In this document: positions 36,933 through 64,000 of the stretch, piece by piece
Position numbering within the stretch: the stretch's first letter is position 1
Layout of the letters: each line of letters starts with the position of its first letter
NCBI GenBank assembly: GCA_963728945.1
Contig: CAVSMA010000001.1
Coordinates: 837,572-901,571 of the forward strand
Origin: an uncultured Actinomycetota bacterium
GTDB taxonomy: Bacteria; Actinomycetota; Actinomycetes; Mycobacteriales; CADCTP01
Direction of reading: 5' to 3'
DNA: 64,000 bases
The notes under the pieces: generated by a model
Seen by the model: the letters and a program-made list of their open reading frames with translations, nothing else
The model's database searches: none
What the model was told of the DNA's origin: nothing
Position numbers and translations under genes: made by a program

Positions 36933-37085
36933 TCAGTGGGCCGTGCGCCGGCCGAAGTGGCGGCCGGTGCGAGCGGCGCGGCGCGCGGTCCGGGCCAGCC
37001 GGAAGTCCGCGGCCTCGCGGCGCAGGTTCGCGCGGCGGTAGTCGAGCTCGGTGTCGAGCGCGGGACCGTAGTAGTAACCAGACAT
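36933..37085 (-). CDS. small basic hypothetical protein (50 aa)
   Basis: ATG at 37085 is preceded by GAGGAG (8-nt spacer). MSGYYYGPALDTELDYRRANLRREAADFRLARTARRAARTGRHFGRRTAH. I recognise no family. Confidence 0.3.
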   Translation of the reverse strand: MSGYYYGPALDTELDYRRANLRREAADFRLARTARRAARTGRHFGRRTAH

Positions 37086-37245
37086 CGTGTGCGCTCCTCG
37101 GATGACTCTCTCTCGTTGACGTGATCGAGAATCGTCCTGAGGTGGCACCTGCGGCATCGGAAGGTCACGCAGTCTCGCGGCCCGGCTCGGCCTGAGGTGG
37201 CCTAAGGTCCTTAGACAGCGGCATCCGAGCAGCTCAGCGGCATAG

Positions 37246-37281
37246 CCGGACCCCGGGAGCACGATCGCTCCCGGGGTCCGG
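37246..37281 (-). terminator. stem-loop downstream of the antitoxin-like gene
   Basis: 15-bp perfect inverted repeat CCGGACCCCGGGAGC / GCTCCCGGGGTCCGG with a 6-nt loop, 13 nt beyond the stop at 37294. Confidence 0.55.
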
Positions 37282-37293
37282 AAAGTATCAACG

Positions 37294-37476
37294 TTACGTC
37301 TGGGTGTCGCCGTCGCCCGTATGCTCCTGGGCCGCGTCCACCCCCCGGTCGATCTGCTCGCCGTACTTGCCGCCGGTCTTCTCGTCGGCGAAGTCCCCGG
37401 CCTTCTCCATGCCCTGGTCGACCTGCTCGTCGTGCTGGTCGGCGAACTCCTTCGCCTTGTCCATGAAGCCACCCAT
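37294..37476 (-). CDS. Rv0909/MT0933-like 'antitoxin' family small protein
   Basis: ATG at 37476. MGGFMDKAKEFADQHDEQVDQGMEKAGDFADEKTGGKYGEQIDRGVDAAQEH matches the repeated K/D/E-rich pattern of the MT0933-like antitoxin family (PF14013, from memory). Confidence 0.7.
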   Translation of the reverse strand: MGGFMDKAKEFADQHDEQVDQGMEKAGDFADEKTGGKYGEQIDRGVDAAQEHTGDGDTQT

Positions 37477-37724
37477 GGTCGGCTCCTCCCGTGTGAGTGA
37501 TTTCACCCTCCTCCCCCTGTTCACCGCTCGCAACCGGACCGGAACGGACCGATTCGGGCGCCCGGCACTCGTCGGCCGGCTCGTCCCGGCGCCGCATAGC
37601 CGGCCCAGCGGCAGCCGGTCAGCCACGCCGGCGCGCCGGCCGCGACACGGGCAATATCAGGACACTCGCACCGAACCCGGGCGACATAGCATCTCCACCG
37701 CCGGCTCCTGCGGCGCGCGGCCCC

Positions 37725-38303
37725 TCAGACGTCGAAGTCCGGCGGAATGAAGGAGAAGACAGCCATGTCGTAGCTCTGTCCACCCCAGCGGGCCTTGTTC
37801 CGCAGCACGCCCTCGGCGACCGCTCCGGATCCCGCCGCAGCCGCCCGGCTAGCCGCGTTCGCCGTGACCATCGAGATCTCCACGCGATGCAGACTCAGCT
37901 GGCCGACACCCCAGCCGGCGAGCAACCGCGCGGCGGTCCGGGCGACGCCGCGACCCGTCGCCGACGTCCGTACCCAGTAACTCAGATTCGCCGACGAGCG
38001 CCGCCGGTCGACTCCCTCCAGCGAGCAAGTCCCGAGCAGGGTCCCGTCATCGCCGAGGACGACGAACGCGTAGAGCGTTCCCTTCGCCCAGGCGTCCCGG
38101 GCGAAGCGCGCCCACTCCTCCTGATCGGCGACGGTGGCATCCGGCCGCCACCAGGGCACCGTCCCCTTCAACTCCGCCGCCGACTCGAGCACCGCCTCGT
38201 GCAACGCGGCAGCGTGGTCCACGTCCAGCGGCCGCAACTCGATCCCGGCGCCACCCAGACGGACGTCGCGCGACACCTGCTGCTGGACTTCGGCTGAGGA
38301 CAT
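37725..38303 (-). CDS. GNAT-family N-acetyltransferase (RimJ/RimL-like)
   Basis: 192 aa. IELRPLDVDHAAALHEAV... and the acetyl-CoA motif WVRTSATGRGVARTAARLL. Confidence 0.85.
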   Translation of the reverse strand: MSSAEVQQQVSRDVRLGGAGIELRPLDVDHAAALHEAVLESAAELKGTVPWWRPDATVADQEEWARFARDAWAKGTLYAFVVLGDDGTLLGTCSLEGVDRRRSSANLSYWVRTSATGRGVARTAARLLAGWGVGQLSLHRVEISMVTANAASRAAAAGSGAVAEGVLRNKARWGGQSYDMAVFSFIPPDFDV

Positions 38304-38449
38304 CGCTGGATGCTAGCGATTCACATGGTGGGCCGGTGATCGACGTAGTAACGCCATTCGGTCGGGCTGCCGTCGATACGCAGAGCAGGGGCGGCTGCAT
38401 CACGTGGCGGGTCCGGCCCAGCCCGGACAGACCTTGCTAGGGTCGGGCC

Positions 38450-39655
38450 GTGCACGGCGACCGCTATTACGTTCCTGGATTGGATGGCGTTCGTGCCGTG
38501 GCAATTCTTCTGGTCCTCGGCCAACATGCTCCGACCAGGCCGCTCATCGACGGTTTCGTCGGTGTGACGGTGTTCTTCTGCCTGTCGGGGTTCCTCATCA
38601 CCACCCTATTGGTCCGCGAACTCGACGGCGGCACGATCGATGTGCGCGCGTTCTATCGCCGGCGCGTGGCGCGCCTCTGGCCGGCGTTGCTGACGGTCGT
38701 CGCGGTGACGGTCGTGGTGCTGCTCATAGATCGACGAGCATTTCCCGATCCGGTGCATCTCAGTGTCGGCCAGATCTTCGCACCCGCCGGTGCGGCGGTC
38801 GTATATACGACGAGCCTCTTCGACTGGTCCGGTCACTTCTTCGCTACGCAGGACTACCTCAACTTCACCTGGTCGCTGTCGATCGAAGAGCAGTACTACC
38901 TGCTGTGGGCATTCGCACTGCTCTTGGCCTATCGCCGCAACCCTAGGCTGTTCGCCGCGCTCACCGCGACGTTCATCGGGATCACCCTGGCGCTCAACCT
39001 CTACCTCGGACTGAGCCGAGAGGTGTTCTTCGATCGGCACGAGTACGTCGGGAGTGACACGAACGCTCTGCCTATCCTGGTCGGCTCATTGCTCGCGATC
39101 GTCGTTCACAACCATTGGTTGCCTCGTACGCTCCGATATCTTGCGCCCGGCGCGCTGCTGGCCGTTTTCCTCCTGCCCGTCCTCGCCTACCGGAACGACA
39201 CCGAGCGCACCTCCCTGGTGACCGTCGCTGGGACCGTGCTGGCGCTCGTCATGTTGATCGGAGTCCTGATACGACCGGGATCGGCAATTGGTTCGATGCT
39301 GGCGAGCGGCCCGATGCGGTGGCTCGGCGAGCGGTCGTATTCCATCTATCTCTGGAACGATCTGGCGCGCATCCTCATACTCAAGGCGCTTGGATATACG
39401 CTGCTCGGTGACGTCGTGTGGATCGTGGTGTTCGTCGTGGTGGCCGAGACCAGCTTCCGGTTCGTCGAGCGCCCGCTGCGGGCCAAATTCGCGCGGAGAT
39501 CCGGTGTGCCACGAACTCGGAGCGCCACGCCGCCGCGGCGGATGCGCCTGCCGCAGCTCACACACCGCCTCCATCTCCCGGCGAAGCCTGGCGCGGACAC
39601 CAGCCCGGCCGCCGTGGCCGATCCCTCGGAGCAGCTAGGCCAGGTACGGCCGTAG
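38450..39655 (+). CDS. acyltransferase family 3 (membrane O-acyltransferase)
   Basis: 401 aa. YVPGLDGVRAVAILLVLGQH...VTVFFCLSGFLIT signature and about 10 TM segments. GC is visibly lower than in the flanks. Confidence 0.85.
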   Translation: MHGDRYYVPGLDGVRAVAILLVLGQHAPTRPLIDGFVGVTVFFCLSGFLITTLLVRELDGGTIDVRAFYRRRVARLWPALLTVVAVTVVVLLIDRRAFPDPVHLSVGQIFAPAGAAVVYTTSLFDWSGHFFATQDYLNFTWSLSIEEQYYLLWAFALLLAYRRNPRLFAALTATFIGITLALNLYLGLSREVFFDRHEYVGSDTNALPILVGSLLAIVVHNHWLPRTLRYLAPGALLAVFLLPVLAYRNDTERTSLVTVAGTVLALVMLIGVLIRPGSAIGSMLASGPMRWLGERSYSIYLWNDLARILILKALGYTLLGDVVWIVVFVVVAETSFRFVERPLRAKFARRSGVPRTRSATPPRRMRLPQLTHRLHLPAKPGADTSPAAVADPSEQLGQVRP

Positions 39656-39850
39656 ATCAGGTTGCCCGCTCACGCCGTCCCAACCTGCCACCGGCTTCCG
39701 TTCGGGCGTCGCGTCGGCACGTACGCGGGTGCGGGTCGTGGGACACTGACGGCGGCTCCGGACGCCGACGAGGGACCAGAGCCGGCCTGTGGACCAGACG
39801 TGGACCAGAGCGGGTACGCGAGCGATGGTCGAGCGTGAAAGCCGCAGGTG

Positions 39851-39935
39851 GGAGGGCTCGCCTAGTGGCCGATGGCGGCGGTCTTGAAAACCGCTAGGAG
39901 CTTGCTCCTCGTGGGTTCGAATCCCACGCCCTCCG
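39851..39935 (+). tRNA. tRNA-Ser (anticodon TGA)
   Basis: Hand-folded. Acceptor GGAGGGC/GCCCTCC; anticodon stem GCGGT/ACCGC with loop CTTGAAA (anticodon TGA); long variable arm; T-arm GTGGGTTCGAATCCCAC. CCA is not encoded. Confidence 0.9.
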
Positions 39936-40589
39936 CACTTCGGACCATGTCAGCTCCAGCGCCGAGTCCAGGTCCAGAGCGCGCAGGCGGTCGGCTGTCG
40001 CCCCGGCCCATCTGCGGGCCAGCGCGAGCACCTGCGGCATGGTCGCGGCGTGGCATTCCTGGACGGACTCGACTCCTCGTTCGACTGCTGAGAGCAGCGG
40101 CAGCAGAGCGGCCCAGGTCTGCAGGTGACCACCGAGCGGGCCGTCGCGCTCCGGCCATCGCCGCGCCATCTGATCGTTGAGCTGTGGCAACCGCTCCACG
40201 CCGCGCCACATCGGGTCCGGGGCGGCGTACCGGACGACGCCGAGATGGCTGTGCAGCACTGCCGCGGTGCAGAGGAAGCACGGCTCGAGGGTGGTGTAAA
40301 GGGTGTGGTGGCGGTAGTCACCGGGCGGCACTGTGGCGAGCGCGTTGATCTCGGCGTGGGCGATGTAGCTGCCGGCGACGTGCCCCGCAGGGCCGGTCCT
40401 CTCGTTACTCCGATTTCGACCGGAGCTGACCTTCTCGCCGTTCGGATCGACGAGAACCGCTCCTACCGGGATGCTCCCGGTTTGGAACGCCTGCCATGCC
40501 AGCAGAAAGCATGGTCGCCACACCGGGTCCACGCATGCGAACGGGTCCGTCGGCGTCGCCACCACCACAGGAGCGTCCCACGGCCCCAC
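39894..40589 (-). CDS. nucleoside/tRNA-adenosine deaminase-like protein (CDA superfamily)
   Basis: IPVGAVLVDPNG...HAEINAL...LYTTLEPCFLCTAAV is the H(A)E / PCxxC zinc-deaminase signature with TadA-like spacing. There is a roughly 80-aa C-terminal extension whose last 14 codons run antisense through the tRNA-Ser gene. Confidence 0.75.
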   Translation of the reverse strand: MGPWDAPVVVATPTDPFACVDPVWRPCFLLAWQAFQTGSIPVGAVLVDPNGEKVSSGRNRSNERTGPAGHVAGSYIAHAEINALATVPPGDYRHHTLYTTLEPCFLCTAAVLHSHLGVVRYAAPDPMWRGVERLPQLNDQMARRWPERDGPLGGHLQTWAALLPLLSAVERGVESVQECHAATMPQVLALARRWAGATADRLRALDLDSALELTWSEVRRAWDSNPRGASS

Positions 40590-40627
40590 CGCGCCGAAGC
40601 CCAGGCGGTCATAGCTAGGGTTCCGGG

Positions 40628-40765
40628 ATGGATCAGCAGGGCGGCGCAGCCGACGGCCCGGCTCCGATCGTGGAGTTGGCGGCGATCACGGTGGACTGTC
40701 TGGACCTGCGGCCGATGATCGACTTCTACGCGCACGCGTTCGGCGCGCGGACCTTGCCGAGATGA
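40628..40765 (+). pseudogene. possible truncated N-terminal fragment of a VOC/glyoxalase gene
   Basis: A hand-translated 45-codon ORF, MDQQGGAADGPAPIVELAAITVDCLDLRPMIDFYAHAFGARTLPR*, looks like the first beta-alpha-beta unit of a VOC protein and then stops abruptly. Confidence 0.35.
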
Positions 40766-40827
40766 CCGCCGCCGCTGACCCAGTGAATGCGGCCGCGTCA
40801 GCCCCGTTGGGATGACGCGGCCGGTCG

Positions 40828-41430
40828 TCACGGGATGGCGGTCGCCCGGGCGTCCTCGGCGTCGAGTTGGCGCCCGGCGTGGCGGAGTGAGAAGGCCAGC
40901 ATGATCTGCGTGAATCCGCGGATCAGTGCCATGAAGCCGACCCAGAACAGGATCAGGAACGCCCGGTTCGCCAGGTTGAACTCGCGGTCCGAACTGGACA
41001 CCCAGAAGGCCAGCAGGATCAGCAGGATCCCGGTGACCAGGCCTATCCACCAGAACCGGTTCTCGTCCCGCGAGGCCACGCCCCGCACGATCTCGAAGGC
41101 CCCGTAGAACAGCAGGATGAGACCAAGTACGGACGCGAGAGCGAAGAACGTGTTGATCGGCCGGATGAACGCCCACAGACCACCGAGCAGGAAGATGACC
41201 CCCATCGCGTAGTGCAGGAACTTCCAGCCTCCGCCGACGGCGCCGGCGAAGACCACCTCGTTGATCCCGGCCGCGATGAACAGGATGCCCAGCAGTATGC
41301 CGACCGTCGTCAGCGAGGTGATGTTCGCGCGCAGCACCAGCCACGCGACCACCAGCCAGGCGAGGCCGGATATCAGCAGGACCCACCAGTAGCGGCTGCC
41401 TTCCCGCAGGAGCACGCGTCCCTCGAACAT
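40828..41430 (-). CDS. HdeD-family (DUF308) membrane protein
   Basis: 200 aa with six TM helices in the repeated DUF308 pattern (WWVLLISGLAWLVVAWLVL; LGILFIAAGINEVV; LLFYGAFEIVRG). Confidence 0.8.
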   Translation of the reverse strand: MFEGRVLLREGSRYWWVLLISGLAWLVVAWLVLRANITSLTTVGILLGILFIAAGINEVVFAGAVGGGWKFLHYAMGVIFLLGGLWAFIRPINTFFALASVLGLILLFYGAFEIVRGVASRDENRFWWIGLVTGILLILLAFWVSSSDREFNLANRAFLILFWVGFMALIRGFTQIMLAFSLRHAGRQLDAEDARATAIP

Positions 41431-55987: not shown

Positions 55988-56077
55988 GGAGGCTTCGCCT
56001 AGTCCGGTCTATGGCGCCGCACTGCTAATGCGGTTTGGGTTAACTGCCCATCCCGGGTTCGAATCCCGGAGCCTCCG
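55988..56077 (+). tRNA. tRNA-Ser (anticodon GCT)
   Basis: Hand-folded. Acceptor GGAGGCT/AGCCTCC; anticodon stem CCGCA/TGCGG with loop CTGCTAA (anticodon GCT); long variable arm; T-arm CCGGGTTCGAATCCCGG. Confidence 0.9.
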
Positions 56078-56374
56078 CCCTCACCAGCACGCTGTCCCTC
56101 ACCCAAACGGAGCCGAAGAGGCGACGGAGAAGCTGCGGTTGCAGTTCTGGTTGCAGTCTCCTCGTGTCGTCGGACAAGGCCTTTCCCGATCGGCCGCACG
56201 CGACGTCGAGGAGTCAACGCCCGCCGGTCAGGCCGACGATCCATGCGGACCTTGCCCAAGCCCACCTTCAGGCGTAGGTCGACTGCCGTGTCGTCAGACG
56301 CTCACCACGCTTCATGACGAAGAGCCACCCGAGGGCGAGATATCCAGCGTAGTGTTTCCATACGCTGCAGTCTG

Positions 56375-57439
56375 ATGGCCCTGGCAACGGAGTGGCCCGT
56401 GACAACGCTACTGGTCCATCCTTCGAGCGGAAGGAACGACGGACGCATCAACGCGAAGCGGTCGCTCCACGCTCCCGTTGACTTCCTCCGGTCGGAGCTT
56501 GCGCGGACGCTCACGTCCGGCCAACTCCAGGAGCTGCGCCGTCGCCATCCCGACGGTCGGGCCCGATTCTGGGGCACCTACCAGCACAACGCGGACAAGA
56601 TCGCGAACGTACACGAGGGCGATGTGGTTCTCTTTACCGGCCAAGGCGGCGCCTGGGCCGTCGGAGTTGTCGGCTATCGTTTCGAGAACCCCGGCTTTGC
56701 AAGGAGCTTGTGGGTCGAAACCGCCGGCAAGGGAACCTATCGTCACGTGTACGCGCTCGCCCGGTACCAAGAAGTCGAGATCCCATATGCCGACATCAAC
56801 GGGCCGCTCGGACACAAGCTGAACAATCACTTCCAAGGTATGGCTGTCTACGAAGGCGAGCGAGCCGACGCCGTCATCGAAGCCCTGCGAATCGACATTA
56901 CACCGCAGGAGGATGCGGCGTATGAAGCCGCGGACGCCGACCTCGCGGTCGAACTGGAGGAAGAGCTTCAACAGACGACGCCACTGTCGCCGATCGAGGC
57001 CGTGGGAGGCACGTCGGTCATAAGGCGGGTCGATGGCGGCGACCGGGTCGTTCGACGTGGTGAGGGCCTACTTGTCGCCGCCTACGTCGCGAGCCTTCCG
57101 AGCGACGTCGAGTTTGGGCGCAACTTCACGCCTGCAGGGGTCACCGACCTCTATATACGACACCCCGACGGCGGCGAACTCATCGAGGCGAAGAGTGTAG
57201 AGACGCACCTCTACGTAAGGCAGGCACTCGCCCAGCTGCTCGACTACGCTCCCGCGATACAACCGACCCCAAGGCTCGTATCTGCTCTATTTCCTCGAAG
57301 GCCGACCCTCAGGGGAATTCGACTGCTCCATCGATACGGCATCGACTGCATCTACCGCACCGGTCCCGGACAGTACCAGAGGTTGGAAGCGCCTGCCTCC
57401 GCAAGGGAACGCCTTGGGTCCGCCCTGACAGGAAGTTAG
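56375..57439 (+). CDS. hypothetical two-domain protein: N-terminal small barrel-like domain plus C-terminal PD-(D/E)xK nuclease-like domain
   Basis: 354 aa. The C-terminal GVTDLYIRHPDGGELIEAKSVETHLYVRQALAQLLDY fits D...E-x-K...Q of restriction-endonuclease-fold proteins. The N-terminal RARFWGT...VHEGDVVLFTGQGGAWAVGVV resembles PUA/EVE/ASCH-type readers, but this is a weak assignment. GC is lower than the core genome. Confidence 0.5.
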   Translation: MALATEWPVTTLLVHPSSGRNDGRINAKRSLHAPVDFLRSELARTLTSGQLQELRRRHPDGRARFWGTYQHNADKIANVHEGDVVLFTGQGGAWAVGVVGYRFENPGFARSLWVETAGKGTYRHVYALARYQEVEIPYADINGPLGHKLNNHFQGMAVYEGERADAVIEALRIDITPQEDAAYEAADADLAVELEEELQQTTPLSPIEAVGGTSVIRRVDGGDRVVRRGEGLLVAAYVASLPSDVEFGRNFTPAGVTDLYIRHPDGGELIEAKSVETHLYVRQALAQLLDYAPAIQPTPRLVSALFPRRPTLRGIRLLHRYGIDCIYRTGPGQYQRLEAPASARERLGSALTGS

Positions 57440-57715
57440 GCCTGTCCAGTCGAGAGGAAACGACGCCAGGGAGACGGATGCCGAGTGCAGCCCGCCGGGG
57501 TGCGTCGGCGCCGCAGTGCCCCTGAGCGGCACTGGGTGCCGCGCGCCACATCACCGCATCACCTGCGGACTCGGCGCAAGTTGCGGCAGGATGTGCGGGT
57601 GCCAAGGGGTCGGTATGCATCCAGCCGTACCCGGCGACCGGTACGCAACTATCCGGCGCGCGATCCCACCCGAGGTTTGTCCGGGGTTTCCGGTGCGCAA
57701 CTGTACGTCTCGCGT

Positions 57716-58999
57716 ATGCGGAAGCCCGAGAAGAAGCAGTACGCGCAGGCCCTACTCGACTCACGTGCGAAGGGAGGACCAGCTCCGCTTAGAGCACACC
57801 GGGTCTACGAGGTCGAGGTCGAGCGCAATCTCGATAAGATCCTCGACTGGCCCTCGTCGCAGTGTGTTGCCTGCCGACGTCGGATCGCGACGACGCAGGG
57901 TCCGTCCGAGAAGGGCTCAAACGCGCCCTTGTGCAGTCCCTGTGATGCACAAGTTCCCTGCATCGACTGCGGCAAGCCGCGTGGTTCGAGCCGGCCCGCC
58001 ACTCCTCCCGACACTCGCCGAGATCCTCGAATCGACAGGCGGGCGCAGTGTGCGTCCTGTGCGGAGGCCGAAGACCTCGGAGCCACCCCGGCCACGGTCC
58101 GACGGGCACGTCTGCGTCGACGCATGAGGGCGCTCGCCGTGCGTACCTTGGGATGGGCTGCGACGATCGCCTTGGTCGCGGGCGTTGGAGTGGCGATCGC
58201 TCGACCCTGGGAGAACGACCACAGGGATGTGGCTGGGAGCCGACCCATCGGAGGCTCGACGGCCCTCGGCAGCCACAGGACCGGCGGTGGCTCCGGCGGT
58301 ACTGGGCATATAGGTGGCGGCGACAGCGGCGCCGGCTCGGGTACGACCAGCGGGTCCGGAGGTACGTCGTACGGGCCCGGACTCGTGCCGACCTTCCGAT
58401 GCCGGGACGGCTCGCTGAGTTACGCCCAACACAGCCAAGGAGCGTGCTCCCACCACGGTGGAATCGGAGGTCCGGCGAGCGCAGCCGTACCCACGTCGAC
58501 CTACGCCTCGCCCGAGACGTCCGATCCCTCTTCGGGGGATATTGGCCTCGACTTCTGCGACGACTCTGTGGACGTATGCCTCGATCAGCCCGGACTTGAC
58601 GAGGTACCGCGAGCTCGGGCCGCCGCCGAAGTCCTGCACAGCTACTACGCCGCCCTGAACAAGCGTGACTACTCGTTCGCATACTCGCTGCTTAACGAGC
58701 AACGACGGCGTCAGATCACCGAGCAGGACTGGTCGGCGTCTCAGGTGGGATTGACCTACTCGCACGTCCACATCCTGGAGTTCAGGACCGCAGGCTCGGC
58801 GGCTGTGGTGTCGCTGTCGTATCTGTCGAATCTGTCGAGCGCCGATATGCCAGCGGACACCTGTTGGGCGTGGACACTGACCCGGGACATCACCAGCGAG
58901 AGCGATTCTCCGCGGATCGGGCCGCCGATCGAAGTCAAGAAGGTCGCATGCACCGCAGCCCAGGAAGCACTCAGTCTTCAGTCTCTCGGCTCCCCTTGA
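57716..58999 (+). CDS. membrane-anchored protein with Cys-rich (Zn-ribbon-like) N-terminus, Gly-rich linker and DUF3761 domain
   Basis: ATG at 57716. CVACRR...CSPCD...CIDCG...CASC cysteine pairs. TM helix WAATIALVAGVGVAIA. CRDGSLSYAQHSQGACSHHGG matches the DUF3761 motif. Confidence 0.6.
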   Translation: MRKPEKKQYAQALLDSRAKGGPAPLRAHRVYEVEVERNLDKILDWPSSQCVACRRRIATTQGPSEKGSNAPLCSPCDAQVPCIDCGKPRGSSRPATPPDTRRDPRIDRRAQCASCAEAEDLGATPATVRRARLRRRMRALAVRTLGWAATIALVAGVGVAIARPWENDHRDVAGSRPIGGSTALGSHRTGGGSGGTGHIGGGDSGAGSGTTSGSGGTSYGPGLVPTFRCRDGSLSYAQHSQGACSHHGGIGGPASAAVPTSTYASPETSDPSSGDIGLDFCDDSVDVCLDQPGLDEVPRARAAAEVLHSYYAALNKRDYSFAYSLLNEQRRRQITEQDWSASQVGLTYSHVHILEFRTAGSAAVVSLSYLSNLSSADMPADTCWAWTLTRDITSESDSPRIGPPIEVKKVACTAAQEALSLQSLGSP

Positions 59000-61325
59000 C
59001 GTAGGTGTGAAGAATTCCTTTTGCCGGCGTCCGGACGCTCCCAGACCTCGTGGCCGTACGCCTTGAGCCGCTGCCGAGCTGTTTCCAGCTCGTCTTCAGT
59101 AAAGAGGACAGGGAACGGCTCTCGCAGAACAAGCGCCTCCATCGTGAGGTCCAGGCGGCCCCGTTCCCACAGCGCGGTGAATCCCTGCGAGACCGCGGGC
59201 GCGTGCAACAGTTGCCTCGCCGCCGCTAGGCCGCCATGGTCTGTAACCATTCGCAAGAACAGCGTCGCATTGTACCCAGCCTCACTCCTTGCCTTCCTGT
59301 ATACGTCCACCATGGCTGCGTGAAAGGCTCGCTCGATGTCAATATCGACTGAGTCAGGTGGGTGGTGAAGAGCGCGCTTGGAGGTTGCAGCCGCTGTCGG
59401 CCTCTCCGACGCGTCATCTCCAGGTTCGCCAGCGAGCGACTCGGCTGGGGAGACTGCGTCGCTCTCCGGCGATCCTGCATCATCATTCGTATCTGCGTCC
59501 GCGTCGGTCAATTCATCGTCCTCGGGAACGTAAGAGGACGGCGTGTCCGGGTCCGGGTCGAAGAGCGGCTTGTCCATAACCTTGCCAATTAAATGAAGCA
59601 TACGCGAGCGACGATCCGAAAAGAACGAGTCGAAATCTGCCCTGCGTAGGGCCGATGGGTCCAGTAGATGTGTGCTGAGCACCGCGTCGAGCTCGGCGCC
59701 GGACAAACCTGATGTCGACTCGACCGTCCGGACATACTCTCGGGGCGACCGGCCCCCAATCTTTCGGTTGGTCGTGGCTGAGAGTGGAGTCTTGTTCACT
59801 ATGCTCTCGCACCGGGCGTGGTCTATCCCGTTCTTCTGGCACCATGCCTTCGGAAAGATGTGGTGGATATCTACAGCTAGGTCCAGGAATGAAGCGAGAT
59901 GGATCGGCTGCCGGTAACCCAATCCATGCAGCCTTCGCGCATGAGCAGCGCATAGATCCCCTTGTAAGCGGCGCTGTTCCGTGTGCGCAAGGTGAGCAAT
60001 CGTGAGGCCTGGAAGTTTGCCTCGGCTGCCGTCGCTGGCTCCGGTTCCCCGTCGCGAATCCAAGGAACCACTTGTTCCAGGTCGCGCGCGAAGCGGGTCT
60101 CCGTGGTCCCCCCGTAGAGCTCACCCAAGACACCTCGCCAGTACCAGATCTGCACTTCCGCGCCGCCGCATGCTCGTCAGCTCTGGAGCCAAGGGTGGCT
60201 CGGATTGCGGCGAGCGGAACGAGCTGCGTCTGGTATGGCAGGTCAGAGGCGAGGAAGATGTGTTCTTGCGCCAGAAAGCCGGCTGCCCAGAGCAGCGCGG
60301 CCTCCACCTTGGTGCCTGTTCGATGTACTCGGCGAGTGTTAGTCGAAGAATATCCTTTCGCTTGCAAGTGATGCCCGGTGCCTGACTAGGGTCCTTGCCC
60401 GCGGCCAGGCGTTGCTCACGTCGTGCTCGTGAAGCGAGGAGAGTGACCGCTTGCAGGAAGTCCGTGTTCTCCACTGCTCGAAGTACGGGCTTGGCGGCGA
60501 GCCGCGCCTTCCGCGCCTTCCAGTCATCATTGAGGCGGAAGTCCTTGTGCGTCTTGTCGCCTGCGAAGGTCGCGGTCAACAACTCGAAGACGTTGAGGGC
60601 AACGCCTCCGGTATTGACCTTCTCGAAGACGGTACAAACGGCCTCTTTTGGGGTCGACTTCTTCAGCACAATGACCGGCAGGGTGTAACTAATTATGTTG
60701 TTGAGGACCTTGTCGTAGAAGCTGTTCCATAGGTCGATTCTATGTGGATCGTGTGCCGTGTACTGTCCCATCCAATGGAAGATCTTCGGCATGTCGAAGG
60801 CAAGCCAAAGAGGAAATACACCGGAGGCACATTGCTTCTCGGTAGTGGAATAGTCTTCTTTGATGCCCCGACCGAAATCCTCACGCAGAACCAGGTCTCG
60901 GGGTGCCGAAACGATAGCTTCCTCGCGGTCACCCTCGTCACCCAAGGCGCGCTCGATGTCAATCAGATACCATCGTTCCAGCTTCTTGCCACGGGGATCC
61001 GTCGTCGATACAGACTTCTGGGACTTGAGCGCTTGGTAGAGTGACGTCAGCCGCTGCTGGCCATCAAGTAAGGAGATGGTCGGGTCGAGACCGTCGAGGG
61101 GCCGACTCCGGCCAGCGGCTTGGGCGCGAAGTCGAAGTCCTCTCCACCGGTCTCGAGCATCATGATGACGCCGACGGGATAGCCGAGCGTGATGGTGGCT
61201 AGAAGGCTAACGATTCGGGGATCGTCCCATTTCCACTCCCGTTGAAAATCCGGAAGTTGAACCTTGCCCATGTCGACGTCGGTCAACATCGTGCCGAGGT
61301 TCAGGTCAGGACTGTCGAAGGGCAC
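58978..61325 (-). pseudogene. GmrSD-family type IV restriction enzyme (DUF262 + DUF1524 His-Me finger), disrupted by at least 4 frameshifts
   Basis: Five consecutive reading-frame segments join into about 780 aa. QLPDFQREWKWDDPRIVSLL (61325-~61105); LLDGQQRLTSLYQAL...FEKVNTGGVALNVFELL (~61105-~60312); VEAALLWAAGFLAQEHIF (~60312-~60157); QIWYWRGVLGELYGG (~60157-~59912); DIHHIFPKAWC...NKTPLSATTNRKIG (~59912-58978). Confidence 0.78.
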
Positions 61326-61600
61326 GAGTTCTCCCTGCCGTGAGGGTCCGCCGAGGCTGTCGAGTTCGATCTAGTGCTGTGGTCGTGTCGTACGCAGGGC
61401 ATGCGTAGAGTGGCTAACCGTAACTAACGGACGGTGCGATCGCAGCCAAATGACGCGTAGGAGCCCAGGTCACCCGACCGGTGCCGCTTCGCGGAGACTT
61501 TGCGTGACTGCCTCCGCGGGCGGGACGAGTTTGACAGGATCGGCTGTCGCGTCAGACCTGGTGCTGCCGCGCGTCGGATCGATGAGGGGGTAGCGCAAGG

Positions 61601-64000
61601 ATGCGTGCGGACAGCGACCGGTGGGTCGAGGTCACGCCGTCCGAGTTCGCACACGAGCGTGCGGGGCTTGCTCTCGTCCGTGAGCTGCTGCCTGACCGTG
61701 CGCCGTACCGAGCCTGGTCCAACTTCGAGTTCCGGGATACTTCAGGCAAATGGCACGAGGTCGACCTGCTCGTGCTGGGGGAGTCCCGACTGCATCTGGT
61801 CGAGCTGAAGTCGTACGCGGGCCGGATCGAGGGTGACGCTTACCGGTGGCGGCGCGGTCGACGGTCTGAGGACTCGCCGCTGCTGCTTACCCGGAGAAAG
61901 GCCCAGCGGCTGTCCAGCGTGCTCAAGGATGCGCTGCGGGAGATCGATCCGACGGTCAGCACGCGGGTGATTCCCTGGGTCCAGGAGTGCGTCTTCCTGC
62001 ACCACCCGGACACCAGAGTGGCGTTGCCACCGGCTCACCTGACCGACCTCTACGGCATTGACGGGCAGGAGCGCCGGTCGGGCCTTCCCTCGATCCGGGA
62101 CCGGCTGCTGGAGCCGGCGACGGACCGGCTCGCGCCGCGACTGATGCAGAACGACGGCCAGCTCCTAGTCGCGCTATTCCGCCGGATCGGCCTGGCTCAG
62201 CGGCGCGAACAGGAGGTCGGTTCCTGGCGGATCATCGGGCCGGCGGAGGCAGAGGGCGACGGCTGGCAGGACTGGCCGGCCGAGCAGCGGATCGCCCGGG
62301 ACCCAGTCCGGATCCGGTTCACGGTGACGCCGCCTGGCACGTCCCGCGAGGACGCTGACCGCAGCCGGGAGCTAGTCGAGCGGGAGTACCGGCTGACCTC
62401 TCGCCTGTCGCACGACGGCCTGCTCCGGCCGCGCGATCTTGTCGAGCACGAGCTCGGTGTCGGCCTGGTCTACGAGCGGGACGACTCCTTCCGACGGCTC
62501 GACTTGTGGCTGAGCGACCGCAGCGATGCCTTGACGCTCCCAGTCCGGCTCCAGCTCGTCCGCCGGGTGGCGGAGGCGCTCGGCTACGCCCATGCGAATC
62601 ACGTGGTCCACCGGGGGTTGACTCCGACCGCGGTCCAAGTCAAGGAAGAAGCGAACGGGCGTGTCCGGGCACTCCTCGGTGACTGGCGGCTCGTGGGCAG
62701 CGACGTGCCGGGCACTCGCTCGACTGGCGGCGCCACCAGACTGTTCGCGGCGTTGGAGGGACCGCAACGGCCCGACCCCGAAGCGGTGAGAGCCGAGGTG
62801 TACCGGGCGCCGGAGGAACGCTGGGACCCCGCTGCCGACCGGGTTCGGCTTGACGTCTTCTCCCTCGGTGCACTGGCCTACTTCGTCATCTCGGGCCGGC
62901 CGCCCGCGTCGGACCAGGCGGACCTGCGTAGCCGGCTGGCCCGCGAGGGCGGACTCGACCTGGCCGGCGATGCCCCGGACGCGCCGTACGCGGTACGGCG
63001 GCTGGTGCTCGAGGCCACCCGAGGTGTGGTCAGTGAGCGACTGCCGGACGTCGCCGCGTTCCTGCACCGGCTGGACGACGCCGAGCGGGCCGCTGACCCC
63101 GAGCCGGCGGACGACGACGACCCGCTGGAAGCGGTCAAGGGCCGGCTGCTCGCCGGCCGGTTCGAGATGCTCGGCCGGTTGGGTACCGGCTCGACCGCCG
63201 CCGGCCTGCTCGTCGCGGACCATCGCGCTGACGGCGAGAAGCGAGTGCTCAAGGTGGCGCTCGACGACGCGGCTGCCCGCCGGCTGGAGAGCGAGGCCGA
63301 GGTGCTGGCGCCGCTGCGGCACCCCCGGCTGGTGCGGTTGATCGAGGGACCGCTGTGGATCGGCGGCCGTACGGCGCTCCTGCTCGAGCAGGCCGGCGAT
63401 CAGACTCTCGCCGACGTCCTCCGGGAGCGGCCACGGCTGTCGCTTGACCTGCTGGAGCGCTGGGGTGTCGACCTGCTCGAGGCGGTGGTCGAGCTGGACC
63501 GGGCCGGCGTGGATCACCGGGACCTCAAGCCGGCGAATTTGGGCGTGCGGGAGCAGCGAGGCAATCGGACGAAGCATCTGGTGCTCTTCGACTTCTCGTT
63601 GGCCCGGGCCGGCGCGTCCGCGGTGGACGCTGGCACGCCGCCGTATCTGGATCCGTTCATCGGGACCTCCGAGCGCCCCCGGTGGGACTCCGCGGCCGAG
63701 CGGTACGCGGCGGCGGTGACGCTGTACGAGATGGCGACCGGCCGGATGCCGGTGTACGGCGATGGTCGGACCCCTCCGGACATGACCCGGGCGGAGGCGC
63801 GGGTGGAGCCGGGCGCGTTCGATCCGAGTGTGGCCGGCGCTCTGAGCGCCTTCTTCCGCCGTGCGCTCCGGCAGGACTTTCGGGAGCGGCACGGGACCGC
63901 AGCCGACATGCTCGCCGAATGGCGCGCCGCCTTCAGCGCGCCGATCGCCACGGTTCCGGACGATGCCGACTCCCGGGCGGCGGCGGCCACTCTGACGACG
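61601..64000 (+). CDS. pglW: NERD domain + degenerate kinase + Ser/Thr kinase protein, PglW-like (BREX type 2 / Pgl); 3' end outside the window
   Basis: Absent from the ORF track (no stop before the window end). Hand translation from ATG 61601 is open for 800 codons. NERD: WHEVDLLVLGESRLHLVELKSYAG. Kinase-like 1: VVHRGLTPTAV, YRAPEE, DVFSLGALAY (no catalytic Asp). Kinase 2: LGTGSTA..RVLKVA, VDHRDLKPANLG, LFDFSLA, GTPPYLDPF. Confidence 0.7.
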   Translation, partial: MRADSDRWVEVTPSEFAHERAGLALVRELLPDRAPYRAWSNFEFRDTSGKWHEVDLLVLGESRLHLVELKSYAGRIEGDAYRWRRGRRSEDSPLLLTRRKAQRLSSVLKDALREIDPTVSTRVIPWVQECVFLHHPDTRVALPPAHLTDLYGIDGQERRSGLPSIRDRLLEPATDRLAPRLMQNDGQLLVALFRRIGLAQRREQEVGSWRIIGPAEAEGDGWQDWPAEQRIARDPVRIRFTVTPPGTSREDADRSRELVEREYRLTSRLSHDGLLRPRDLVEHELGVGLVYERDDSFRRLDLWLSDRSDALTLPVRLQLVRRVAEALGYAHANHVVHRGLTPTAVQVKEEANGRVRALLGDWRLVGSDVPGTRSTGGATRLFAALEGPQRPDPEAVRAEVYRAPEERWDPAADRVRLDVFSLGALAYFVISGRPPASDQADLRSRLAREGGLDLAGDAPDAPYAVRRLVLEATRGVVSERLPDVAAFLHRLDDAERAADPEPADDDDPLEAVKGRLLAGRFEMLGRLGTGSTAAGLLVADHRADGEKRVLKVALDDAAARRLESEAEVLAPLRHPRLVRLIEGPLWIGGRTALLLEQAGDQTLADVLRERPRLSLDLLERWGVDLLEAVVELDRAGVDHRDLKPANLGVREQRGNRTKHLVLFDFSLARAGASAVDAGTPPYLDPFIGTSERPRWDSAAERYAAAVTLYEMATGRMPVYGDGRTPPDMTRAEARVEPGAFDPSVAGALSAFFRRALRQDFRERHGTAADMLAEWRAAFSAPIATVPDDADSRAAAATLTT

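What the first reader, a model, noticed from the sequence alone, without database searches (positions are those of the whole stretch)
56375..57439. Stand-alone two-domain protein at the island edge: possible modified-base reader fused to a PD-(D/E)xK nuclease
Seen in the sequence:
- This is the first gene after the tRNA. Its C-terminal ~120 aa carry a convincing restriction-endonuclease-fold core: TDLYI, then 9 residues, then ELIEAKS, then YVRQALAQLLDY.
- A linker rich in acidic residues (AAYEAADADLAVELEEELQQ) separates it from an N-terminal ~170-aa domain. That domain's strand pattern (RFWGT..., GDVVLFTGQGGAWAVGVVGYRF, YRHVYALARYQEVEIPY) is reminiscent of small beta-barrel readers (PUA/EVE/ASCH/SRA-like).

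Established knowledge: type IV restriction enzymes are frequently reader-nuclease fusions.

Inference: this may be a single-protein modification-dependent nuclease. I cannot match the domain combination to a named family from memory.
Basis: partly seen in the sequence, partly recalled or inferred. Interest (0 to 1): 0.55.

Follow-up and report, generated by a model that had tools for sequence, protein, structure and literature searches.

The report
Modified-DNA reader fused to nuclease
This is an intact stand-alone defence-island gene that most likely joins a YTH/EVE-like pocket for a chemically modified DNA base to a DNA-cutting domain, making it an uncharacterised family within the well-known class of modification-dependent (type IV) restriction enzymes.

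Summary
The ORF is real (56375-57439, +; probable true start GTG 56399, 346 aa). It lies in a 6-kb low-GC island directly after tRNA-Ser(GCT). Pfam, NCBIfam, PADLOC and PDB sequence searches find nothing. A confident AlphaFold model (pLDDT 88.7) shows two domains. The N-domain's best structural match, and its best profile match in the PDB, is the YTH-like N-terminal domain of Thermococcus gammatolerans McrB, a published N6-methyladenine DNA reader. VcaM4I (EVE-HNH) and YTH domains follow. The C-domain has the PD-(D/E)xK fold with invariant E230, D258, E271-x-K273 and Q287xxxY291. Both domains are exchangeable modules. The nuclease also occurs behind the phosphorothioate-binding SBD of ScoMcrA and a McrB-N-like reader. 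The family is rare (218 of about 185,600 species genomes, all Actinomycetota), has no conserved partner gene and sits among defence genes. It is most likely a single-chain type IV restriction enzyme. The ligand is unproven; 6mA is favoured and modified cytosine is possible. It is a new member of a known kind, of moderate interest.

The parts
55988..56079 (+). tRNA-Ser (anticodon GCT); left edge of the low-GC island
   Evidence: ARAGORN. GC drops immediately downstream.
56080..62000 (.). Low-GC island (GC 0.63 against 0.73 for the rest of the window) that carries the gene. No integrase and no att-like direct repeat were found.
   Evidence: composition; no repeat of the tRNA 3' end; ORF content.
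56389..56392 (+). GGAG Shine-Dalgarno-like motif 6 nt upstream of GTG 56399, the probable true start
   Evidence: Sequence read. The homolog N-termini align to MTTLLVHP.
56375..57439 (+). Coding sequence of the two-domain protein (354 aa from ATG 56375; probably 346 aa from GTG 56399)
   Evidence: ORF; 104 homologs; 2884 relatives at E<=1e-3; 218 species genomes.
56408..56884 (+). N-terminal reader domain (residues 12-170), a YTH/EVE-like PUA-superfamily beta-barrel
   Evidence: AF2 model with pLDDT above 90 over this range. Foldseek hits: 6p0f TgaMcrB-NTD E 3.1e-6, TMt 0.69; VcaM4I; MJECL36; YTHDC1; Mmi1. A profile of the domain finds 6p0f as the best PDB sequence hit, E 0.014.
56564..56575 (+). 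RFWG motif (R64-G67). W66 is invariant and aligns with W53 in YFWG of TgaMcrB-NTD. It is a candidate wall of the base pocket.
   Evidence: invariance; alignment to 6p0f.
56618..56635 (+). GDVVLF motif (G82-F87). G82 and F87 are invariant. It aligns with GDMVLF of TgaMcrB-NTD and GDKLVIY of the EVE protein PH1033.
56711..56752 (+). W113 (invariant) to Y126 (at least 90% conserved), further conserved aromatics proposed to complete an aromatic cage
   Evidence: conservation. The role in a pocket is inferred and was not checked in 3D.
56909..56974 (+). Acidic alpha-helical linker (residues 179-200)
   Evidence: helix 179-200, lower pLDDT. This segment is variable in the family alignment.
57014..57430 (+). 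C-terminal PD-(D/E)xK nuclease domain (residues 214-352)
   Evidence: The secondary-structure order of the core is alpha(229-239)-beta(246-248)-beta(259-263)-beta(266-272)-alpha(278-294)-beta(301-306). Foldseek hits: PaqCI, McrC, NucS/EndoMS, AF1548, SfsA and SPARDA DREN nuclease domains.
57062..57064 (+). E230, the invariant glutamate on the first core helix
57146..57193 (+). D258 ... E271-A-K273, the invariant D...ExK catalytic motif on adjacent strands
57233..57247 (+). Q287-x-x-x-Y291 on the helix after ExK (RecB/Cas4-type motif order), invariant together with R282
   Evidence: The family assignment of this motif rests on my own knowledge.

Best explanation
The gene encodes a single-chain, modification-dependent (type IV) restriction endonuclease. 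The N-terminal YTH/EVE-like domain scans DNA. By inference, it flips a modified base into a pocket lined by the conserved aromatics W66, F87, W113 and Y126. The helical linker tethers a C-terminal PD-(D/E)xK nuclease (E230, D258, E271, K273, plus R282 and QxxxY). By inference, this nuclease cuts DNA near the recognised site using divalent metal, probably as a dimer or after two sites are bound, as in other type IV enzymes. The host would lack the target modification, so only incoming phage or plasmid DNA that carries it is cut. The ligand is not established. N6-methyladenine is favoured (about 45% within this model), because the closest solved relative is the 6mA-preferring TgaMcrB N-domain. 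Modified cytosines (5mC, 5hmC, glucosyl-hmC) get about 35%, and other hypermodified bases the rest. Shown here: the two folds, the intact invariant motifs, modular domain swapping with known type IV parts, stand-alone defence-island context and foreign composition. Inferred: base flipping, ligand identity, cleavage geometry and the immunity logic.
For: The model is confident (pLDDT 88.7) and has two domains. For the N-domain, the top Foldseek hit is 6p0f TgaMcrB-NTD (E 3.1e-6, prob 1.00, TMt 0.69). It is followed by VcaM4I, a type IV EVE-HNH enzyme, then MJECL36 and the YTHDC1 and Mmi1 YTH domains. Independently, a broad profile of the N-domain ranks 6p0f/6p0g first among 177,635 PDB sequences (E 0.014), aligning RFWG and GDVVLF with YFWG and GDMVLF. 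TgaMcrB-N binds 6mA-containing DNA preferentially and flips the base into an aromatic pocket (PMC7544203; PMC7641849). The C-domain hits PD-(D/E)xK nucleases and has invariant E...D...ExK...QxxxY. The reader domain is also fused to HNH, to Shedu SduA_C nuclease and HsdM plus NACHT, and to an SRA-like domain plus this same nuclease. The nuclease domain is also fused to the phosphorothioate-binding SBD and the head domain of ScoMcrA/SprMcrA and to MrcB_N. One member adds a TIR domain. No neighbour is conserved; the flanks hold GmrSD, Wadjet-like genes, Z1/DUF4420, Schlafen-type helicase, AbiGi and TerD. No methyltransferase lies in the window island. Distribution is patchy, 218 of about 185,600 species, and the gene's GC3 is foreign to its host.
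Against: There is no biochemical evidence for any member of this family. No Pfam, NCBIfam or PADLOC model recognises either domain, so assignment rests on a predicted structure and one borderline profile hit (E 0.014). I could not inspect the model coordinates, so whether W66, W113 and Y126 line one pocket is unverified. EVE-type relatives (VcaM4I; PH1033 at E 0.83) read cytosine modifications, so 6mA is not secure. The adjacent GmrSD gene is broken, so the island may be decaying, although this gene keeps every invariant residue.
Confidence: 0.65

Rival explanations
1. A nucleotide-triggered abortive-infection nuclease. The PUA-like pocket binds a free modified nucleotide or short degradation product (for example m6-dAMP released when DNA is degraded during infection). 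Binding then switches on the nuclease, which degrades DNA indiscriminately.
For: A PUA-like domain has been shown to sense free m6-dAMP in the PUA-Cal-HAD system (bioRxiv 10.64898/2026.01.15.699771). A MazG-like nucleotide pyrophosphohydrolase sits directly upstream in L004, L007 and L010, and accompanies the gene in 6 of 80 genome loci.
Against: The closest relative (TgaMcrB-N) reads the base in DNA. The PUA-Cal motif VWWGWW is unlike RFWG. The same nuclease is driven by readers that bind DNA itself, namely SBD, MrcB_N and SRA-like domains. The MazG partner is absent from the window and from about 90% of loci.
Confidence: 0.12
2. An RNA-directed toxin. The YTH-like domain reads m6A or another mark in RNA, as eukaryotic YTH domains do, and the nuclease cleaves RNA.
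For: YTH domains of YTHDC1 and Mmi1 are among the structural hits. Some type IV-like systems have been predicted to target RNA (PMC11090510, listed).
Against: TgaMcrB-N, the best match, shows little affinity for RNA. The eukaryotic YTH hits are much weaker (E 0.08-0.2). The partner nuclease modules (PD-(D/E)xK of NucS/PaqCI/McrC type, HNH, Shedu) and co-readers (SBD, SRA, McrB-N) are DNA-directed.
Confidence: 0.05
3. A housekeeping repair nuclease of the NucS/EndoMS kind, with an N-terminal beta-barrel DNA-binding domain plus a C-terminal RecB-like nuclease acting on mismatches or lesions.
For: NucS (2vld) and EndoMS (5gke) are among the Foldseek hits. Their overall two-domain plan is similar, and actinobacteria use NucS for mismatch repair (the last point from my own knowledge).
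Against: The NucS hits cover only about 100 residues, i.e. the nuclease core. The N-domain matches YTH/EVE readers instead. The gene is present in only 218 of about 185,600 species genomes, in variable islands with foreign GC3, and also on plasmids, which does not fit a housekeeping gene.
Confidence: 0.03
4. A non-functional remnant of a decaying island with no present activity.
For: The neighbouring GmrSD gene is split over at least two reading frames. No sigma-70-type promoter was found upstream. No mobility genes remain.
Against: The ORF is uninterrupted and full length relative to its family. It keeps every invariant residue of both domains and has a plausible GGAG-GTG start. The promoter scan does not cover actinobacterial promoter types.
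Confidence: 0.05

Closest known systems
[quoted passage not shown]
   Same: It is the best structural match (E 3.1e-6, TMt 0.69) and the best profile match (E 0.014) of the N-domain. The xFWG and GDxVLF motifs are shared. It serves as the modification sensor of a type IV restriction system.
   Different: There it is fused to an AAA+ GTPase motor that recruits a separate McrC nuclease. Here it is fused directly to a PD-(D/E)xK nuclease, with no NTPase in the protein or nearby. Sequence identity is about 19%. The host here is bacterial (Actinomycetota), not archaeal.
VcaM4I / TspA15I group (EVE-HNH type IV enzymes; PDB 6YEX)
   Same: It is a single-chain enzyme with an N-terminal PUA-superfamily reader and a C-terminal nuclease, with no methyltransferase. 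It is the second Foldseek hit (E 1.3e-3).
   Different: Its nuclease is HNH, not PD-(D/E)xK. Its reader is a Pfam-recognisable EVE domain specific for 5mC/5hmC (PMC7897488, PMC6765204). The present reader matches no Pfam model.
MspJI family and YenY4I (SRA or EVE reader plus PD-(D/E)xK nuclease)
   Same: They follow the same logic and domain order, with a PUA-superfamily reader followed by a PD-(D/E)xK cutter (PMC6765204).
   Different: They use different reader clades (SRA; EVE plus DUF3427) with cytosine-modification specificity. No detectable sequence relationship was found here.
ScoA3V (Sco5330) group: 'distantly PUA-like' N-domain plus HNH, 6mA-stimulated nicking, Actinomycetales only (Lutz et al. 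2019, PMC6765204)
   Same: I found a 430-cluster family of about 330-aa proteins with this same reader domain fused to HNH, in Streptomyces, Nocardiopsis, Kitasatospora and others. Its description matches that of the ScoA3V group.
   Different: The window protein has a PD-(D/E)xK domain, not an HNH domain. Whether ScoA3V's N-domain is this domain could not be tested, because the Sco5330 sequence was not obtainable.
ScoMcrA / SprMcrA (head-SBD-SRA-HNH, phosphorothioate- and 5mC-dependent type IV enzymes; PDB 5ZMM, 5ZMO, 7CCD)
   Same: Relatives of the window protein's nuclease domain sit behind ScoMcrA-type head and sulfur-binding domains (P0104, P0095). Some full-length family members carry a ScoMcrA-like head domain (precomputed PF26345). 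The host phylum is the same.
   Different: The window protein has neither head, SBD, SRA nor HNH. Only the modular logic and the shared partners connect them.
PUA-Cal-HAD (E. coli ECOR28; PUA-like sensor of free m6-dAMP)
   Same: It is a PUA-superfamily sensor with an aromatic pocket for a methylated adenine, used in phage defence.
   Different: Its effector is a phosphoesterase/HAD pair that depletes dNTPs. Its ligand is a free nucleotide. It has different pocket motifs and is a two-gene system.

Membership tests
PD-(D/E)xK nuclease superfamily | Core alpha-beta-beta-beta-alpha-beta fold | tested here: met
   The AF2 secondary-structure order is 229-239 / 246-248 / 259-263 / 266-272 / 278-294 / 301-306. 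Foldseek hits include PaqCI, McrC, NucS, EndoMS, AF1548 and SfsA.
PD-(D/E)xK nuclease superfamily | Acidic residue on strand 2 and (D/E)xK on strand 3, conserved across the family | tested here: met
   D258 and E271-A-K273 are invariant in 39 full-length and 22 mixed-architecture sequences. E230 on helix 1 is also invariant.
PD-(D/E)xK nuclease superfamily | Match to a curated sequence model of a named subfamily (RecB/Cas4, Mrr, NucS and so on) | tested here: not met
   There were no hits in Pfam, NCBIfam or PADLOC, and none for the C-domain profile against PDB sequences. Superfamily membership therefore rests on fold and motifs only.
PD-(D/E)xK nuclease superfamily | Metal-dependent phosphodiester cleavage | not testable with these tools
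   This needs a biochemical assay.
YTH/EVE-type readers (PUA superfamily) | PUA-like beta-barrel fold resembling solved YTH/EVE domains | tested here: met
   Foldseek hits: 6p0f E 3.1e-6, TMt 0.69; 6yex; 2p5d TMt 0.58; 6rt4; 5hfz. BFVD gives small viral proteins with TMt 0.73.
YTH/EVE-type readers (PUA superfamily) | Match to the Pfam YTH or EVE sequence models | tested here: not met
   There were no Pfam hits for the window protein or for 39 family members, even at E<=5. Only a borderline profile hit to TgaMcrB-N (E 0.014) and a non-significant one to PH1033 (E 0.83) were found.
YTH/EVE-type readers (PUA superfamily) | Aromatic cage that holds the flipped modified base | tested here: inconclusive
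   W66 and W113 are invariant and Y126 is at least 90% conserved across five architectures. W66 aligns with W53 of TgaMcrB-N. Model coordinates could not be inspected, so co-location in one pocket is unverified.
YTH/EVE-type readers (PUA superfamily) | Preferential binding of a modified base (6mA, 5mC, 5hmC) | not testable with these tools
   This needs EMSA or ITC with modified oligonucleotides.
Type IV (modification-dependent) restriction enzymes, single-chain reader-nuclease type | Modification-reader domain and nuclease domain in one polypeptide | tested here: met
Type IV (modification-dependent) restriction enzymes, single-chain reader-nuclease type | No cognate methyltransferase; stand-alone gene in variable defence contexts | tested here: met
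   No methyltransferase is in the window island. No neighbour is conserved in 80 loci. Defence genes flank it. One locus (L003) has a C5-methylase that belongs with a neighbouring Z1/DUF4420 cluster.
Type IV (modification-dependent) restriction enzymes, single-chain reader-nuclease type | Cleavage that requires modified DNA; restriction of modified phage or plasmid in vivo | not testable with these tools
   No member of this family has been characterised.
McrBC systems | AAA+ GTPase (McrB) plus a separate McrC nuclease | tested here: not met
   There is no NTPase domain in the protein and no McrB or McrC gene in the island. Only the reader domain resembles that of an archaeal McrB.
ScoA3V (Sco5330) group | C-terminal HNH nuclease | tested here: not met
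The window protein carries a PD-(D/E)xK domain.
ScoA3V (Sco5330) group | N-terminal domain homologous to that of Sco5330 | not tested
NucS/EndoMS | NucS-type N-terminal domain and near-universal presence within the lineage | tested here: not met
   Only the nuclease core aligns (about 100 columns). The family occurs in 218 of about 185,600 species genomes.

The most novel reading that the evidence does not exclude
The N-domain defines a previously unmodelled bacterial clade of YTH-like readers of N6-methyladenine in DNA. Actinomycetes, and some Bacillus, plug it into many effectors: this PD-(D/E)xK nuclease, HNH (possibly including the 6mA-stimulated ScoA3V), Shedu, SRA-nuclease combinations and HsdM-NACHT giants, sometimes with a MazG-like nucleotide hydrolase. 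If so, this module would be a main molecular basis of the long-known restriction of adenine-methylated DNA in Streptomyces and relatives. It would also be a new compact 6mA-DNA reader for tools.
Probability: 0.3. Interest if true: 0.55.

Novelty: new member of a known kind. Interest (0 to 1): 0.4.

Why it matters
Readers of N6-methyladenine in DNA are few (PMC11037411). Prokaryotic YTH-like domains were described as rare and mostly archaeal (PMC7641849). This family, together with its much larger HNH-fused sister family (430 clusters), shows such a reader-like domain to be widespread and heavily shuffled in Actinomycetota, yet invisible to Pfam, NCBIfam and PADLOC. If the ligand is 6mA, these enzymes would help explain why methylated DNA from E. 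coli is poorly accepted by many actinomycetes, a practical obstacle in genetic engineering of antibiotic producers. They could also serve as 6mA-dependent cutters or binders. Even if the ligand is a cytosine modification, adding profile models for both domains would improve defence-system annotation. It does not change the concept of type IV restriction.

Tried and rejected
(1) Direct searches of the protein against Pfam, PADLOC, NCBIfam and PDB sequences gave nothing. Scanning 39 members against Pfam and searching the full-length and C-domain profiles against PDB also gave nothing useful.

(2) I looked for an att-type direct repeat of the tRNA 3' end, or an integrase, to define a mobile element. 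None was found.

The paper's supplements are not held. No other paper mentions it. Two homolog searches seeded with reader-HNH proteins did not list an S. coelicolor entry. The link stays untested.

(4) The Hosford 2020 structure paper on TgaMcrB-N is not held, so the cage residues of the template could not be read.

(5) The phage collection has no homolog, so a phage origin is not supported.

(6) tRNA adjacency is not a family trait; 8 of 60 loci have a tRNA within 6 kb.

(7) The first all-against-all neighbour clustering timed out. It worked after filtering ORFs by codon-position GC.

(8) The precomputed PF26345 and PF26340 labels were not reproduced by the local Pfam copy. Direct PDB hits to ScoMcrA/SprMcrA replaced them. 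P0217's middle domain gave no PDB sequence hit, and its SRA-like nature rests on a weak Pfam hit in P0242 (E 0.0057) and on motif resemblance.

(9) The NucS-like repair reading was considered and rejected on distribution and on the N-domain fold.

(10) The promoter and terminator scan was uninformative.
Full report
OBSERVATION.

It is the first credible gene after tRNA-Ser(GCT) at 55988-56079. Every quoted peptide is present.

Three details need correction. The spacer between TDLYI and ELIEAKS is six residues (RHPDGG), not nine. The nuclease domain spans about 140 residues, not about 120. The true start is probably the GTG at 56399, which is preceded by GGAG at 56389-56392. That start yields MTTLLVHP, the N-terminus shared by the homologs.

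The gene lies in a low-GC stretch. GC is 0.629 for 56080-62000 against 0.728 for the rest of the window, and the gene's GC3 is 0.71 against 0.88 for the flanking GntR regulator. I found no integrase and no att-like repeat of the tRNA end. The island is therefore defined only by composition and the tRNA.

WHAT SEQUENCE SEARCHES SAY.

Pfam, PADLOC, NCBIfam and the PDB sequence set return nothing for the protein. Pfam also returns nothing meaningful for 39 family members scanned one by one.

Homologs do exist. A word-indexed search gave 104 proteins, nearly all annotated as actinobacterial hypothetical proteins of about 340 aa. An exhaustive profile search gave 2884 representatives at E<=1e-3 and 178 at E<=1e-30. 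A scan of one genome per species found the family in 218 of about 185,600 species, all Actinomycetota and none closer than 43% identity. One full-length copy lies on a Rhodococcus plasmid, and none was found in the phage collection.

STRUCTURE.

With the family alignment, AlphaFold2 gives a confident model (mean pLDDT 88.7). It has an N-domain (about residues 12-170), a helical acidic linker (179-200) and a C-domain (214-352).

Foldseek against the PDB puts the N-terminal domain of Thermococcus gammatolerans McrB first (6p0f; E 3.1e-6, probability 1.00, TM 0.69 on the target, 183 columns). It is followed by VcaM4I, an EVE-HNH type IV enzyme, then MJECL36 and, more weakly, the YTH domains of YTHDC1 and Mmi1.

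The C-domain collects PD-(D/E)xK nucleases: PaqCI, McrC, NucS/EndoMS, AF1548, SfsA and the SPARDA DREN domain. Its secondary-structure order is the canonical alpha-beta-beta-beta-alpha-beta.

A second, independent line supports the N-domain call. I built a broad N-domain profile of 23 sequences from five architectures. With it, the best hit among 177,635 PDB sequences is again the TgaMcrB N-domain. The hit is borderline (E 0.014) but ranks first, and it aligns RFWG and GDVVLF with YFWG and GDMVLF. A narrower profile touched the EVE-fold protein PH1033 at a non-significant E of 0.83.

According to the literature held here, TgaMcrB-N is a YTH-like domain. It binds DNA containing N6-methyladenine better than unmodified or 5mC DNA, has little affinity for RNA, and flips the base into an aromatic pocket (PMC7544203; PMC7641849).

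CONSERVATION.

In the C-domain, E230, D258, E271, K273, R282, Q287 and Y291 are invariant, even in proteins where this domain follows a different reader.

In the N-domain, P16, W66, G82, F87 and W113 are invariant across all architectures. T30, L54, G67, D83, N105, A109 and Y126 are at least 90% conserved.

The window protein keeps all of these except that it has S for T at position 30. Two invariant tryptophans plus a conserved tyrosine fit a YTH-type aromatic cage. I could not inspect the model coordinates, however, so this remains an inference.

DOMAIN NETWORK.

Both halves are exchangeable modules.

- HNH nucleases. One form has a CxxC...AHIKxR motif in about 330-415-aa proteins. This is a family of 430 clusters in Streptomyces, Kitasatospora, Nocardiopsis, Nonomuraea and the Bacillus cereus group. 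A second form has a McrA-like HNH (P0205).
- The Shedu SduA_C nuclease (P0180).
- An SRA-like middle domain followed by this same nuclease (P0217, P0225, P0231, P0242).
- HsdM-type N6-adenine methylase plus NACHT, in proteins of 1224 and 1819 aa.

The nuclease occurs behind the following.
- A McrB-N-like reader (MrcB_N, P0229).
- The phosphorothioate-binding SBD of ScoMcrA/SprMcrA. P0104 residues 187-352 match 7CCD and 5ZMO at E 3e-21 to 9e-13. P0095 also carries the ScoMcrA head.

One full-length member has an added C-terminal TIR domain. This pattern is typical of type IV restriction and related defence modules.

GENOMIC CONTEXT.

No partner gene is conserved. In 80 genome loci the commonest neighbours are a Schlafen-group-3/DUF2075 helicase (15 loci), an HTH_31-DUF5753 regulator (14 loci) and a MazG-like nucleotide pyrophosphohydrolase (6 loci, mostly directly upstream).

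Individual loci show other neighbours:
- GmrSD, Z1, DUF4420 and a C5-methylase (L003).
- Schlafen/AlbA, MazG-like, GmrSD, FRG and a DUF4411/M78 pair (L004).
- A Wadjet-like cluster (L006).
- HNH and DUF5343 (L002).
- TerD, AbiGi, HNH and a restriction endonuclease (L009).

tRNA adjacency is occasional (8 of 60 loci).

In the window itself the neighbour on the minus strand is a GmrSD-type gene whose GmrSD_N domain is split over two reading frames. No methyltransferase is present in the island.

MECHANISM.

The best-supported reading is a single-chain, modification-dependent restriction endonuclease. The YTH/EVE-like domain recognises a modified base in incoming DNA, and the tethered PD-(D/E)xK domain cuts nearby. 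The host is spared because it lacks the mark.

The folds, the motifs, the modularity and the context are shown. Base flipping, the ligand, the cleavage geometry and the immunity logic are inferred.

For the ligand I favour 6mA, because the closest solved relative prefers it. Two further observations are compatible with that. It is also fused to adenine methylases. Neither is proof, and EVE-type relatives read 5mC/5hmC.

I give the overall model 0.65. Within it, 6mA gets about 45%.

RIVALS.

- A free-nucleotide-triggered abortive nuclease, by analogy with PUA-Cal-HAD, which senses m6-dAMP. The MazG-like partner and the NACHT and TIR fusions give this some support (0.12).
- An RNA-directed toxin (0.05).
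- A NucS-like repair enzyme (0.03). I rejected this on the N-domain fold and the patchy distribution.
- A dead remnant (0.05). The intact motifs argue against this.

COMPARISON WITH THE KNOWN.

The logic is that of MspJI, VcaM4I/TspA15I and YenY4I, which join a PUA-superfamily reader to a nuclease (PMC6765204).

[quoted passage not shown] They described such domains as rare in prokaryotes and mostly archaeal. The combination is therefore anticipated in kind.

The published ScoA3V (Sco5330) has a 'distantly PUA-like' domain plus HNH, is confined to Actinomycetales and shows 6mA-stimulated nicking. This resembles the HNH-fused sister family found here. I could not obtain its sequence, so this remains a lead.

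Membership in Pfam's YTH or EVE families was tested and is not met at the sequence level. Membership in the PUA and PD-(D/E)xK superfamilies is met at the fold and motif level. It is not a McrBC system, because it has no NTPase and no McrC.

VERDICT.

It is a new, uncharacterised and unmodelled member of a known kind of system. Interest is moderate (0.4). It offers a plausible bacterial 6mA-DNA reader module and a candidate contributor to methyl-specific restriction in actinomycetes, but it does not change any concept.

Noticed in passing
window 58978-61325 (- strand): This is a GmrSD-type (DUF262/DUF1524) type IV restriction gene broken into several ORFs in different frames. 61047-61325 matches GmrSD_N profile positions 3-49 (E 1e-8). 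60121-60945 matches positions 141-198 (E 4.8e-6). 58978-60063 carries an 'HHIFPKAW...NKTPLSATTNRKIGG' His-Me-like motif but has no Pfam hit. It is probably a frameshifted pseudogene, or the frameshifts are sequencing errors.
   Followed up: partly
window 57485-58999 (+): This 504-aa ORF lies directly downstream of the gene. It has CxxC zinc-ribbon-like motifs, a hydrophobic segment, a Gly/Ser-rich stretch and a weak DUF3761 match (E 1.7e-6, just below the Pfam cut-off). A DUF3761 gene also lies near the homolog on the Rhodococcus qingshengii plasmid (L009 4112-4627). Its function is unknown.
   Followed up: partly
L004 7629-7997; L007 3582-3944; L010 2574-2930; L009 5390-5998; L030, L034, L036, L042, L043, L074: A small MazG-like nucleotide pyrophosphohydrolase lies immediately upstream of reader-nuclease genes, often overlapping by 4 bp. 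It occurs with both the PD-(D/E)xK and the HNH versions, and in 6 of 80 genome loci. This suggests an optional two-gene module. It is absent from the window.
   Followed up: partly
P0184 (1224 aa), P0211 (1819 aa), P0202 (fragment): These are giant proteins with this reader domain at the N-terminus, followed by an HsdM-type N6-adenine DNA methylase, a NACHT NTPase and, in P0211, pentapeptide and WD40 repeats. A reader-methylase-STAND fusion is an unusual architecture.
   Followed up: no
L007 3941-4942, L008 4001-4984, L010 2938-3930, L011 2953-3993; P0262-P0381: This is a large sister family (430 clusters) of about 330-aa proteins with the same reader domain fused to an HNH nuclease (CxxC...AHIKKRA). 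It is found in Streptomyces, Kitasatospora, Nocardiopsis, Nonomuraea and the Bacillus cereus group, and is mostly annotated 'hypothetical protein'. It may be the ScoA3V (Sco5330) group.
   Followed up: partly
P0053 (488 aa): This full-length family member has an extra C-terminal TIR_2 domain (residues 364-462, E 1.5e-8). That links the module to NAD-depleting or signalling effectors.
   Followed up: no
L012-L091 (for example L040 9414-11393): A Schlafen-group-3 / DUF2075 helicase gene is the most frequent neighbour of the family (15 of 80 loci, either orientation, about 1-3 kb away).
   Followed up: partly
window 37000-41000: A second stretch of lower GC (0.66-0.69 against about 0.73) surrounds a second tRNA-Ser (anticodon TGA, 39851-39936). 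It may be another small island.
   Followed up: no
BFVD hits M1HWH6, M1HZG2: Small (about 140 aa) unnamed viral proteins match the reader domain structurally (E 4.4e-7, TM 0.73 on the target). Stand-alone YTH/EVE-like domains therefore exist in viruses.
   Followed up: no
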